Position numbers and translations under genes: made by a program. Shown here one piece after another: positions 36,120 through 57,064 of a stretch of 64,000 nt of DNA. The stretch is taken from the NCBI RefSeq assembly GCF_002113885.1, contig NW_018404823.1, forward strand, positions 1,050,911 to 1,114,910, written 5' to 3'. The notes below the pieces were generated by a model. The model made no database searches, was not told the origin of the DNA, and saw only the letters and a program-made list of their open reading frames with translations. How positions within the stretch are numbered: the first letter of the stretch is position 1; the number at the start of each line of letters is the position of its first letter. This DNA comes from Mizuhopecten yessoensis (taxonomy: Eukaryota).

Positions 36120-36204
36120 TGTAATTTGATGTAGTAGATGCAGACAGAACAGGAGATACAATGACACTTAGAAACACTACTGCAAACGAAAGTCGGTAAT
36201 CCAT
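36120..36204 (-). CDS. Gene B exon 1: signal peptide MDYRLSFAVVFLSVIVSPVLSASTTSNY
   Basis: 85 nt, phase-1 gtaagt donor, in frame with exon 2 (total ~163 aa). Confidence 0.82.
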
Positions 36205-37116
36205 TTTCAATTTGTCGTCTTGATGCAAATCCTTACGTTCCCGAAGTTGTATACTTCAGTTCCTCTTTTTAGACAGTTATATATTATTCCAGTGTTAGTA
36301 GCTCGGCGTCAGCGTCATGAAACAGTGACAAATTCTAATTCTGTAATCATGTGTTAATCACGCCCCTACACTATCTGGACGTGTAGGTACGTATACACCC
36401 GACCCCGACGTACGTATATCTTATCTACAATTAATACATGTACATCGTCACATGTCAGATATCAGCATCCTTGGGTAAAGGAATATATCTCTGACGATCA
36501 TTTAGTCTAAATAGTGATAATATATACATCTAATAGGTACTCCAATATTTGGCATTCCTCAATCAGATGTTGAGACAGTATTATACTATTTCACGTATCA
36601 CTTCCTAACACAATATGATATCCTTAACAGATGGGTGAATACATGGTTCCTGACCTGTGCATTTCTCAACCAGATGCTGAAGCAGGCAACAGCATAATTT
36701 GAGCTGTAAAAAAGATGACAAACACCTTGCAAATCCCGAAATGAAAAACAAATAATTGTGGAATGAAATAATTTTTCATTCAACTCTATACTGACATATG
36801 TTTTTTGTTTTGTTATGTCATAACCCCATGACAGGGGAGGTTTTATTATTGAATTGAAAAATGTCGATACTGTGTAAATACAGATGTGTTATGTTTTCTC
36901 TGCCACCGTGTACTGTAGTGTGCTATTATGCATTACTGGTTAGTTGTTCTAGATTATCAATTTCTGGACTATTGAAAATAGTATAGACCATATTTATGAA
37001 GAAACGCTATTTTCAAAAAAAAAATCATATCTCTAATATTTCTAATATTAAAGTAAATGACATCATGCGTAACGTTGTTGGTAGATCCTTAAAATTGACA
37101 TCTAATCCCTGTTACA

Positions 37117-37304
37117 ATTCCGTCTTTGCGTATTGCAGAGTTATCTTCTCTTGGGAGCAGGTATTGATTGTTACGTCACTTGTTTGTGAGAGTAACGTCA
37201 TCAATATTTGAGAAAACGACGTCATTTTCTCACACAAACCAATGACGTAACAATCAATACCTGCTCCCAAGAGAAGATAACTCTGCAATACGCAAAGACG
37301 GAAT
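37117..37304. mobile_element. ttccgtc MITE, copy 3
   Basis: Same long TIRs; flanked by taca on both sides. Confidence 0.9.
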
Positions 37305-38726
37305 TACATATGGAGTTACCAAGAGTAACGTCTTGACCAAAACTTTGATATTTTTTTCTCATATTGATGATACTGGTATTGAATTTTCATATGATACATG
37401 GATGTATATGGACATTTATAGATCCATGAACAAATCTGTATTTGAAACATCTTTAACTACGTAAACCAATGCTTTAACCTTTGACCCCCAGTACAATAGT
37501 TTTCGCTGTCATAACCTGTTTCTTCTTGGGTAACTATACAGACGCTTGCATGTATTATCTACAGCACAGAACAGAAATACGGAAAATAATTGGAAAAAAC
37601 AAATATCATACATATAGAATATTTCTCAATAAATTCAGTACAGCGCTCAAATAGACAGTTTTACAAATATAACTACCACCTGTCTATAATCACCACATGT
37701 GCACACTAAATAACTGTTTCCTGTATATAAATGCGACATGTACTATGAGGCTTTATTTACACTTCAGTACCTTCAAAGTAAATTGAAGGCAATACATATG
37801 GATACAAAGCAGCACAAAGCGATAATATTCGGAATATATCTACAATATGAGTGACTATACAGTTTCAATATCTGGTGCATCATTATGAAGCAAGTAAGCC
37901 CATCTTCCTCAGCTCAAATGACTGTTTAAAAAGAGCCTATTATCGATCCGTCATAGGACAGAAATTGCAAGAATTTAATACATTGTTTAGGTGTTTTCCT
38001 CAGATAACGGAGACGATTTCTATATTGTAAAGCAATTTAATAGTAAATTGTTTCTCATATTTAAATTAGATAAACAATGGAAAAAGAAACATTTATCATC
38101 GTCCAGAACATTACAATATATTTGCATATATTTGCTTTTCTGTCGCTAGTGGTCATCTTTTTATTCCTACCGGCTTCAAGCTCCAAGTTGTGATCGTTAT
38201 TCGAAATATAGATATTATCCTCTTATGGTTCAGACAAAACTAAATGCTAGTAAATAAGATTAAATTACGATGATTTATTAAACTTTCAATATAGGTTAAC
38301 AAGGAGAAATACTTACATTTTTAACACTTTATTCACTTTGTTTGCTGTGTATTAATGAAGCAGTTTATAGGGTGAAGACCTGGGCCGTTTTTGTTTGTCG
38401 CTATCCAAACGGTTGGACCGGTTCGTTTATGAGATATATATAAGGTCGGAACTATAGTTATCTGATGCTGCTTTCAGGCGACCCGTGACAAAACCTTGCA
38501 AGGCCTGCATATACTCGAAAATTGTGAAATTTAAAAACAGACAAACCGGTTGCTACGCATAAATGACAGGCCCCAGGTTCGGCTCTTGATAGATATGTTT
38601 ATTCATAAGGAGTATATACGACTCAGTGACCACATACATTGTATACGCTGACAACCATATGTCTGGTATGTGTGTATACATTTGTAAACATTTGTACGTT
38701 AAACACCGGTGTGAGTCATATCCAAA

Positions 38727-54899: not shown

Positions 54900-56578
54900 C
54901 TAAATGTGAAGAACAAATACAATATGCTTTTTGGATTCTATTTTGATTGACAGACTAATGCGAGAGAAGTGTTGCATCGGTGGACCTCTTGAAAGGACTA
55001 ATGTACTACTACAATACGTTGATATTTTTCCATAATGAACACGATATTTTGGTTATCGCTGTATTTCACGTTTTCCACTTATTTTAACACGGACCAATCA
55101 TTGGTACAATTCAGCTATATAGCTTTAAAACAAGCAGAGGTTAACTTCATTTTAAAGGGTCAGAGGATAAAAGTTTGCCGGTCAAAAATATCACAGGTTA
55201 CAATATTATACATAAGCCTTTTTGTCGATCTGAATAAGTACCAAGTAAGTTGGTGCAGTTGTTTTCTTTTCTATCTTACATAGGCACATCTAATACAGAG
55301 TAACGTAAACCGCCTTACACTGAATATATAAAGCTCATCAAAGCAAAACAAAAACTCGAGGATATGCTGTTAGATGAGGATATTTTGAAGACTAAGAGGC
55401 ATCTGAATTACACTCACACGGCTTCTCATATCTATAAAATAGTTTCAATGAGAAGTAATCTAATGTTCAGAAGTGCTTTAAGTATTACATATATAAATAA
55501 ATTATATGTCTACACCAAATTGTCAGGAAGGTGGCTGGCATGATTGGTATATGTAATATTATTATACGTGTAATTATGTTAGTATAATTTTTCATAACAT
55601 TAACTATCAAATAAAACTTAAAAGCAGTAATGTGTGGTAGCATACCCAAATATGGAAGTGTTAAACGAATAATGGTAGTAAAATAAAACACTATAGCATT
55701 ATATTTTAAGCACGGAATTATATAAAACTGTTGATGTTATGGAAGTAGTATTTGAATCAAAGTGACATTTTCTACACTTTTTACGTCCTTCAAATCGAAA
55801 AAAGTATTAGGCAAACAATTATCTAAGTTACGGTGAAGTATTCTTTAATCTTTGTAAACAATGAAATATTATAGCTGGAAATCAGCCCATGATTACCATC
55901 GTATCGTAAAATGTTTTAACGTAGAATGAATATCTTTTCATTACTCTATTGGTCAAAGATCACCGCATCTGTGCAGAAAAACATGATACTTCAAATAGGT
56001 CCTTGGATAGTACATCAACTTTGTAAGGCGTTAAAGCAGCATATAATCCATTTGTTTTCTCGTTTGCAATGTCATACGTAAAACTAAGCACCGGGCAAAT
56101 TAGATTAACATAGTATCATTAACTTATTGGACGTGTATTTTGTTTATTATATACATTTTTTAAAATAGAAACACATGCTTCCGAGATATTAATTTCAATT
56201 TCAACCAATTTGATTGACAAAGAAGAATGGTACACTATCAAAAGGATTGTACAACAGACTTATAGCCTATATAAATCCGATCCATTGGTGGAATACATAT
56301 GGACATATTTGTTTGATATTGCAATTTATTATAAATTATAAAGATTTTGCTTACTGTCAATTATTGATAATCAGAAAAGGGTATCATATTTGGCGTTAGA
56401 ACCTTATAGACAATTTGACCATAAAAAATAGATGTACAGTACTGTATATTTCTAGACCTTATGCATCTGGTGTAAAATAATATTTCATATATACATATAT
56501 ATACATTACTCCGAGACATTAATCTTTGTAGTAACATATTTAGCAGATAACATGCAGTATATCAAGCACCATACATAC

Positions 56579-56641
56579 CAGCTGTGGACATTACAGTTGA
56601 GCTCGCGGTTGTTGCATCAGCGGCATATTCTTCTACACCAA
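56579..56641 (-). CDS. Gene C exon 2 (VGVEEYAADATTASSTVMSTA)
   Basis: ccttttggcag|...|gtatgt, 63 nt, phase 1-1. Confidence 0.8.
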
Positions 56642-56979
56642 CTGCCAAAAGGAAAGACAAATTATACGCACCTGCATGATTGATTTACCTGTTTTATTAG
56701 AGATAGCACAACATTTTCACAGTTATATATTAACGTATATCACGCTATACCTAATAAAGATACACACATTTCATGTTTAACAAAAAGCTTTAGATTAATA
56801 TGTTCTTACTCCGGTAGGAAAATCGTAACGTTATATAATAATAATATCAAAAGATATTTATTGAACTTTGCTAAATAGTGGGAACATTTATGTATCAGTT
56901 ATTTTCAAATTTACTAACATGTAATACTTCATCATTAACTGCTAATTGGAAGAATTAATAGTAAAATATATCAACTTAC

Positions 56980-57064
56980 CACTTGAAGTAATAACCGCCC
57001 CCAGGGCATGTCCTGACAGGACGGCTACTAATAGAAATACTCCGAGAGACTTGTAACTATTCAT
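56980..57064 (-). CDS. Gene C exon 1: signal peptide MNSYKSLGVFLLVAVLSGHALGAVITSS
   Basis: 85 nt (same length as gene B exon 1), G|gtaagt donor; total ~232 aa. Confidence 0.85.

What the first reader, a model, noticed from the sequence alone, without database searches (positions are those of the whole stretch)
36120..57064. Pair of catalytically intact cGAS-like receptors embedded, opposite strand, inside a CD164/porimin mucin cluster
Seen: two full cGLR ORFs and a truncated third sit on the + strand between mucin genes B and C. cGLR1 is head-to-head with gene B, their ATGs about 2.5 kb apart, so they may share a promoter region. Established: cGLRs make cyclic dinucleotides for STING signalling; CD164 is an endolysosomal sialomucin used as an arenavirus (LCMV) entry factor; TMEM123/porimin was described as a pro-oncosis receptor. 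Inference: this could be a co-regulated mollusc innate-immunity locus pairing nucleotide second-messenger synthases with surface/lysosomal mucin decoys or effectors. It could equally be a chance insertion, since bivalve cGLRs are heavily expanded.
Basis: partly seen in the sequence, partly recalled or inferred. Interest (0 to 1): 0.75.

Follow-up and report, generated by a model that had tools for sequence, protein, structure and literature searches.

The report
Scallop cGAS-like pair beside mucin genes
Two already catalogued cGAS-like genes of the Yesso scallop, plus a broken partial copy, sit between two mucin genes; the neighbourhood appears shared by other scallops but not by the one clam compared, so it is likely an old accident of position rather than a working immune module.

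Summary
The anatomy is real. The window is Mizuhopecten yessoensis. cGLR1 (38727-40661) and cGLR2 (45691-47655) keep the GS/DxD/D catalytic residues and a cGAS fold. Both are already in the published cGLR catalogue, as 2 of 73 genes in this species, and neither was assayed. The third copy is a real partial tandem duplication of cGLR2's 5' end. By accession order and contig length, the link to mucin B is shared by Ylistrum and Pecten. In Mercenaria, CD164 and the closest cGLR relative lie on different contigs. Nothing positive supports co-regulation: cGLR1 had reads in 2 of 3 RNA runs while B had none, and the spacer holds a MITE and no enriched immune motifs. B and C lack the cysteine-rich domain that LCMV entry needs; only gene A is a true CD164. 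Both enzymes are acidic (pI about 6) with a TPR-like tail, so they are unlikely dsRNA/dsDNA sensors. Verdict: known cGLRs; the linkage is likely incidental and scallop-restricted.

The parts
38727..40661 (+). cGLR1 = XP_021347785.1 / LOC110446791, 644 aa, single coding exon; Mab-21 NTase core (G50 S51, D62, D64, D183) plus predicted TPR-like helical tail (about 380-644); pI 5.9
45691..47655 (+). cGLR2 = XP_021347733.1 / LOC110446761; 654-aa read-through ORF, RefSeq form 651 aa spliced at 47633; G42 S43, D54, D56, D178; pI 6.1
48808..48821 (+). short last coding exon of the RefSeq cGLR2 model (ends FEVILD*)
43739..44098 (+). truncated cGLR2 duplicate (119 codons; homology ends at 44051, before the third catalytic Asp); likely a pseudogene fragment
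40935..45967 (+). tandem partial duplication: block 40935-44051 repeated as 44087-45967 (79-95% identity); spans DNA downstream of cGLR1 to the 5' end of cGLR2
   Evidence: single-copy depth over the fragment in DNA-like run X15
36120..36204 (-). mucin B exon 1 (signal peptide); LOC110446784 / XP_021347777.1
34168..34574 (-). mucin B exon 2: Cys-free S/T-rich ectodomain, transmembrane helix, tail ending YSNLNSMT (YxxL-type motif)
32343..32379 (-). alternative last exon of mucin B (tail ending SVEY)
56980..57064 (-). mucin C exon 1 (signal peptide)
56579..56641 (-). mucin C exon 2
54349..54899 (-). mucin C exon 3: Thr-rich 21-nt repeat, transmembrane helix, tail RRPYSAVQ; predicted protein 232 aa, no ectodomain Cys
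3806..29769 (-). gene A, true CD164 / sialomucin core protein 24 (XP_021347776.1, 287 aa, 24 ectodomain Cys, NYHTL tail)
37116..37305 (.). 190-bp palindromic MITE-like repeat inside the B-cGLR1 spacer (80-nt arms, 95% complementary; very high depth in run X15)

Best explanation
These are two catalogued scallop cGAS-like receptors and a broken partial copy that likely landed between CD164-derived mucin genes by chance in a scallop ancestor and likely work independently of them. Shown: catalytic residues, a cGAS fold in the predicted cGLR1 model, acidic pI, a predicted TPR-like tail, a cGLR1/cGLR2 split shared by other scallops, and the partial duplication. Inferred history: one near-intronless cGLR inserted between B and C and duplicated in tandem before the scallop radiation. 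A later partial duplication in the Mizuhopecten line left the fragment. Inferred function: each enzyme is a ligand-gated cyclic-dinucleotide synthase, most likely making 2'3'-cGAMP for one of the species' five STINGs. It is likely switched on by a non-nucleic-acid ligand, probably a protein bound at the acidic back face or the TPR-like tail, as proposed for acidic cGLRs such as Sp-cGLR2. The mucins are likely bystanders carried along by slow scallop genome rearrangement.
For: Both proteins are in Table S1 of PMC9980059; the species has 73 cGLR and 5 STING genes. Fold: Foldseek best hit Sp-cGLR1 8gjy E 2.4e-12; VIA Z 25.4 MB21D2, 24.1 Sp-cGLR1, 24.0 Cv-cGLR1. The cGLR1 clade has 100/100 support across 4 scallops. 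Linkage: Ylistrum XP_060069223/224/225 = B/cGLR1/cGLR2 on one 746,254-bp contig; Pecten XP_033740236-7 (B) next to XP_033740238 (cGLR2-like). Unlinked in Mercenaria: CD164 on a 100,968,995-bp contig, closest cGLR relative on an 85,987,162-bp contig. Scallop synteny is generally conserved. cGLR1 had reads in 2 of 3 RNA runs and B in 0 of 3. No ISRE/NF-kB enrichment in the spacer: 1 ISRE-like site against 0.5 expected, 0 NF-kB. pI 5.7-6.6 in 11 of 11 subfamily proteins against >8.5 for nucleic-acid sensors. The same tail is fused to Mab-21 in a 137-member, mostly mollusc cluster, TM 0.77.
Against: The linkage has persisted across at least three scallop genera, and the P. maximus-Amusium split alone is dated near 130 Myr; selection on the linkage is not excluded. 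Synteny was read from accessions and contig lengths, not from DNA. Only one clam pair was compared, and clams have many other cGLRs. The RNA test is shallow (about a fifth of each run, unknown tissue and treatment, depth at most 3.6). No activity is shown. Two other long M. yessoensis cGLRs in the published screen (samples 81, 83) carry no 'active' note. The resemblance to Sp-cGLR2 was judged by eye from the supplement, not aligned.
Confidence: 0.65

Rival explanations
1. Co-regulated innate-immune module: B and cGLR1 share regulatory DNA and are induced together, pairing a surface or lysosomal mucin with second-messenger synthases.
For: Head-to-head layout with ATGs 2523 bp apart. Linkage kept in Ylistrum and Pecten, same chromosome in Argopecten. 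B and cGLR1 orthologues are both retained at 62-72% identity.
Against: cGLR1 had reads without B in 2 of 3 runs. Head-to-head pairs are defined by starts within 1 kb (abstract start of PMC7817982); here TATA-like boxes are 2154 bp apart with a MITE between. No motif enrichment. Unlinked in Mercenaria. B and C lack the cysteine-rich domain that LCMV needs.
Confidence: 0.12
2. The proteins keep the motif but make no cyclic dinucleotide, or act outside immunity, like the orphan MB21D2 or MAB21L1; they would act as scaffolds through the TPR-like tail.
For: MB21D2 is the top (tied) structural match, Z 25.4, and MAB21L1 scores Z 20.6. The active-site loop, residues 51-61, is poorly modelled. The paper singled out only 15 of 140 screened cGLRs as active for in-depth study, none from a scallop. 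The spacing to the third Asp exceeds the printed motif.
Against: All three acidic residues are invariant in 11 of 11 sequences spanning scallops and venerid clams. The core is more conserved than the tail, 72-79% against 55-64%. Two long cGLRs, Cv-cGLR2 and Sp-cGLR2, are active.
Confidence: 0.2
3. Physical partnership: the short basic cytosolic tails of the CD164-family mucins ([33 protein letters not shown]) are the positively charged ligand for these acidic, TPR-tailed cGLRs, reporting receptor engagement or endolysosomal damage.
For: Acidic cGLRs are proposed to sense a positively charged non-nucleic-acid ligand. The core net charge is -8 and -4. The tail resembles peptide-binding TPR proteins such as PlcR, Z 10.7, a level that is not decisive for helical repeats. 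The tails are basic.
Against: Basic juxtamembrane tails are generic. The same acidic TPR-tailed architecture is widespread in molluscs, and the linkage was not seen in Mercenaria. No co-expression with B in the runs laid.
Confidence: 0.03

Closest known systems
Animal cGAS-like receptors (cGLRs; PMC9980059); these very proteins are Table S1 entries XP_021347785.1 and XP_021347733.1
   Same: Same accessions; Mab-21 core plus helix bundle; catalytic triad; cGAS fold
   Different: Not among the enzymes in the screen table; genomic context not seen in the sections read
Sp-cGLR2 (Stylophora, 2'3'-cGAMP, unknown ligand) and Cv-cGLR2 (oyster, unidentified product)
   Same: Long constructs (712 and 631 aa); Sp-cGLR2 has a predicted negative ligand surface and, by eye, the same GP...WP...GCHVVPVGH...EWR motifs
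   Different: No alignment was run; ligand and product of the scallop pair are unknown
Sp-cGLR1 (8gjy), Cv-cGLR1 (8gjw), mammalian cGAS, MB21D2 (7lt1)
   Same: Core fold, Z 21-25 over about 310 residues
   Different: The nucleic-acid sensors are short and basic (pI >8.5); the scallop pair is acidic, has an insertion between the second and third Asp, and a tail of about 270 residues
CD164 / endolyn / MGC-24 sialomucin family (with porimin/TMEM123 and insect visgun)
   Same: Gene A passes the Pfam cut-off (76.2 against 28.5 bits) with Cys-rich domains and NYHTL; B and C share the FDGxSFxGGIxL transmembrane entry and a Tyr-based tail
   Different: B and C are Cys-free and score below the cut-off (19.7 and 15.2 bits); they belong to a compact subfamily also found in sea slugs; orthology to vertebrate TMEM123 was not tested

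Membership tests
cGLR | GS plus three acidic catalytic residues | tested here: met
   cGLR1 G50 S51 D62 D64 D183; cGLR2 G42 S43 D54 D56 D178; invariant in 11 of 11; D183 aligns to the Asp of SVDLT in Sp-cGLR1
cGLR | literal spacing of the printed motif (X50-90 before the third Asp; Q/T before GS) | tested here: inconclusive
   Spacing is 116 and 119 and the residue before GS is L or S, outside the printed pattern; the authors nevertheless list both proteins
cGLR | homology over both NTase core and helix bundle | tested here: met
   PF03281 and PF20266 above cut-off in both proteins
cGLR | predicted structural homology to cGAS/cGLR | tested here: met
   cGLR1 model pLDDT 79.4; Foldseek E 2.4e-12 and VIA Z 24-25. 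The cGLR2 model was not returned
cGLR | ligand-dependent cyclic dinucleotide synthesis | not testable with these tools
   No assay; neither protein is in the published screen table
nucleic-acid-sensing cGLR subclass | pI above 8.5 with a basic ligand surface | tested here: not met
   pI 5.93 and 6.13; core net charge -8 and -4; threshold. Surface electrostatics were not computed
CD164 (genes B and C) | central cysteine-rich domain and MGC-24 score above cut-off | tested here: not met
   0 ectodomain Cys in both; 19.7 bits for B and 15.2 bits for C's last exon against 28.5
CD164 (gene A) | MGC-24 domain, cysteine-rich ectodomain, NYHTL tail | tested here: met
   76.2 bits, 24 Cys, tail ERNYHTL
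porimin / TMEM123 | orthology to vertebrate TMEM123 | not tested
   No vertebrate sequence was in hand; insect hits named 'porimin' match gene A's tail
bidirectional (head-to-head) promoter pair | transcription starts within 1 kb | tested here: inconclusive
   Starts not mapped; ATGs 2523 bp and TATA-like boxes 2154 bp apart, with a MITE between; B had no reads
bidirectional (head-to-head) promoter pair | co-expression | tested here: inconclusive
   cGLR1 reads in 2 of 3 runs, B in 0 of 3; shallow, tissue unknown

The most novel reading that the evidence does not exclude
A scallop-specific guard locus, kept together for over 100 million years, in which acidic TPR-tailed cGLRs are switched on by a protein ligand, namely the basic cytosolic tails of their neighbouring CD164-family mucins. 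It would be an animal cGAS-like enzyme that guards a membrane entry receptor instead of sensing nucleic acid.
Probability: 0.04. Interest if true: 0.85.

Novelty: already known. Interest (0 to 1): 0.2.

Why it matters
As found, it matters little: two of 73 catalogued scallop cGLRs beside mucin genes. Its modest value is as a conserved pair of orthologous genes (cGLR1 65-72% identical across four scallops) from the acidic, TPR-tailed mollusc cGLRs whose activating ligand is unknown. That makes them sensible candidates for hunting non-nucleic-acid cGLR ligands. If the mucin tails proved to be that ligand, it would answer an open question and show guard-type sensing by an animal cGLR.

Tried and rejected
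No whole genome is held for this window, so synteny could not be read from DNA. Assembly artefact for the fragment: rejected, because run X15 covers its bin at single-copy depth 12.5, with a contig of depth 11.5 across position 44086. My first acceptor for B exon 2 (34577) was wrong and was corrected to 34574. No further cGLR or CD164-family remnants appeared in the window by tblastn with 21 queries. The promoter scan of four upstream regions showed no enrichment; one palindromic relaxed NF-kB-like site lies upstream of C at 57375. The CD164 tail search gave only 13 hits from 25 candidates and no Mercenaria or Ruditapes protein. Of the 150 listed representative hits I looked up 9, plus P0044; 1 of these 10 was Mercenaria and none Ruditapes, so the Ruditapes cGLR on a 43,723-bp contig remains untested. 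Sinanodonta CD164 (189-Mb contig) and its cGLR hits (113-Mb contig) are also unlinked, but those cGLRs are only 21-29% identical and are weak evidence. Argopecten: same chromosome, accessions far apart, so inconclusive. Non-consecutive IDs do not refute adjacency, since this species' own neighbours are LOC...784, 791 and 761. Gene C was not returned, so its orthologues are unknown. The second structure job (cGLR2) had not finished after five collecting calls. No complex prediction was run. Three look-ups of earlier findings returned nothing. Literature searches listed no paper on a CD164-cGLR linkage; the library lacks most subscription papers.
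Full report
Observation. Six-frame reading gives two long + strand ORFs, 38727-40661 and 45691-47655, and a short related one at 43739-44098. Both long proteins pass the Pfam cut-offs for Mab-21 and Mab-21_C and are 49% identical. cGLR2 matches Mizuhopecten yessoensis LOC110446761 at 100%, which names the species. The flanking - strand genes B (ATG 36204) and C (ATG 57064) encode a signal peptide, an ectodomain of 38-40% Ser/Thr, a transmembrane helix and a short Tyr-bearing tail. 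Gene A (29769-3806) is the true CD164, with 24 ectodomain cysteines and NYHTL.

The enzymes. G-S, E, D-x-D and the third Asp are invariant in all 11 sequences of the scallop plus venerid subfamily, and the third Asp aligns with that of Sp-cGLR1. The spacing to the third Asp is 116-119 residues, longer than the printed 50-90. The AlphaFold model of cGLR1 (pLDDT 79.4; loop 51-61 under 50) matches Sp-cGLR1 and cGAS by Foldseek and MB21D2, Sp-cGLR1 and Cv-cGLR1 at Z 24-25 by VIA. Residues about 380-644 form a helical TPR-like tail (PlcR Z 10.7, not decisive for helical repeats). The same tail is fused to Mab-21 in a 137-member, mostly mollusc cluster (TM 0.77), so this is a common mollusc architecture. 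The cGLR2 model was not returned.

Already known. In PMC9980059 I read sections 5 and 6, found passages, and searched the supplements. Table S1 lists cGLR1 (XP_021347785.1), cGLR2 (XP_021347733.1) and three Pecten relatives. The species has 73 cGLR and 5 STING genes. Four M. yessoensis cGLRs were screened, not these two, and none carries an 'active' note. The paper reports that nucleic-acid-sensing cGLRs have pI above 8.5 and proposes that acidic ones sense a positively charged ligand. Sp-cGLR2 makes 2'3'-cGAMP in response to an unknown ligand. The window's proteins have pI 5.9 and 6.1, and the 11 subfamily members 5.7-6.6. dsRNA or dsDNA activation is therefore unlikely (inference).

The fragment. 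Self-BLAST shows block 40935-44051 repeated at 44087-45967 in four segments of 79, 88, 92 and 95% identity. The first copy ends about 92 codons into cGLR2, before the third Asp. Over 78 codons pS is 0.18 and pN 0.044, which may mainly reflect constraint on the intact copy. Run X15, which behaves as genomic DNA and differs from the window by scattered substitutions, covers the fragment at single-copy depth (12.5 against about 9-15 in unique bins), so the duplication is real. It had no RNA reads in 3 of 3 runs.

Synteny. No genome was available, so I used accession order and contig length as proxies. Ylistrum balloti: B orthologue, cGLR1 and cGLR2 are XP_060069223, 224 and 225 (LOC132549316-318) on one 746,254-bp contig. 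Pecten maximus: B (LOC117327393) is followed by a cGLR2-like gene (LOC117327394), with LOC117328341 and 342 on the same 51.4-Mb contig. Argopecten irradians: same 75.5-Mb contig, accessions not adjacent. The tree gives a fully supported cGLR1 clade of four scallops; the cGLR2-like proteins are unresolved but 58-65% alike. The insertion and the cGLR1/2 split therefore likely predate the scallop radiation; P. maximus and Amusium alone split about 130 Myr ago (PMC10225492, passages and section 6). Outside scallops, Mercenaria CD164 (XP_045196666.2) is on a 100,968,995-bp contig and the closest cGLR relative (XP_053407660.1, 36-37%) is on an 85,987,162-bp contig. That is a single comparison, it concerns gene A's orthologue rather than B's, and other cGLRs could lie near clam CD164. 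Scallop synteny is broadly conserved, so retention within the family is the default expectation.

Regulation. The ATGs are 2523 bp apart. TATA-like boxes at 36283 (-) and 38437 (+) are 2154 bp apart, but such boxes occur about 5 times per kb here, so this is only suggestive. A 190-bp palindromic element sits between them. ISRE-like sites number 1 against 0.5 expected, and there is no NF-kB site. Head-to-head pairs are defined by starts within 1 kb (abstract start of PMC7817982). I laid three raw RNA runs from three studies, about a fifth of each, on 34150-54149. cGLR1 had depth up to 3.6 in X22 and X24 and none over its coding bins in X19. B, cGLR2 and the part of C's presumed 3' UTR in range had none. 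Tissues and treatments are unknown and the tool may drop reads, so this is weak evidence against co-expression. The spliced RefSeq models suggest that B and cGLR2 are transcribed elsewhere (inference).

The mucin analogy. LCMV entry needs CD164's central cysteine-rich domain (PMC8915965, passages).

Verdict. The genes and the arrangement are real and the proteins are already catalogued. The linkage looks scallop-wide and most likely incidental. Searches (listings and abstract starts only) showed no paper on the linkage. PMC11439060 was seen as passages only. Figures of PMC9980059, including the tree and the ligand summary, are not held and could refine which assayed enzyme is the closest relative. 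Interest 0.2.

Noticed in passing
window 34168-34195 and 32343-32379 (-): Mucin B has two alternative cytosolic tails: read-through ...GYSNL (Tyr-based sorting-type motif) or spliced ...SVEY. Both isoforms are also annotated in Pecten maximus and Argopecten irradians, so the switch is conserved. It may toggle lysosomal sorting against surface retention; a PDZ-type reading of VEY is recalled and untested.
   Followed up: partly
window 43973-44009: The cGLR fragment keeps an in-frame loop of about 12-13 codons that cGLR2 lacks; Ylistrum and one Pecten cGLR2-like protein also have a longer loop there, suggesting that cGLR2 lost it after the duplication.
   Followed up: partly
window 27823-28021, 31454-31558 (half), 31898-32093, 37116-37305, 41760-41960, 60566-60760: Six copies of a 190-bp palindromic MITE-like element, with very high depth in run X15.
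   Followed up: no
window 23548-24809, 11802-13414, 15388-15772, 18061-19507: Tandem arrays in the introns of gene A: a 146-bp satellite (8.7 copies), a 38-bp array (42 copies) and two 34-bp arrays.
   Followed up: no
window 3806-29769 (-): Scallop CD164 has 24 ectodomain cysteines in repeated modules; clam relatives have 27-39 cysteines in total. Its gene body is CpG-depleted (o/e 0.43) against 0.70-1.08 for the cGLRs, B and C, which would fit a methylated housekeeping gene beside less methylated, tissue-restricted ones (inference).
   Followed up: no
window 54349-57064 (-): Gene C was returned by neither homologue search and may be unannotated or lineage-specific; compact B/C-type mucins occur in other molluscs, including two Elysia species.
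   Followed up: partly
P0005: An unnamed assembled transcript encodes a third type of this subfamily, 48-52% identical to both cGLR1 and cGLR2.
   Followed up: no
window 15248: One N in the window, beside a short tandem repeat in an intron of gene A.
   Followed up: no
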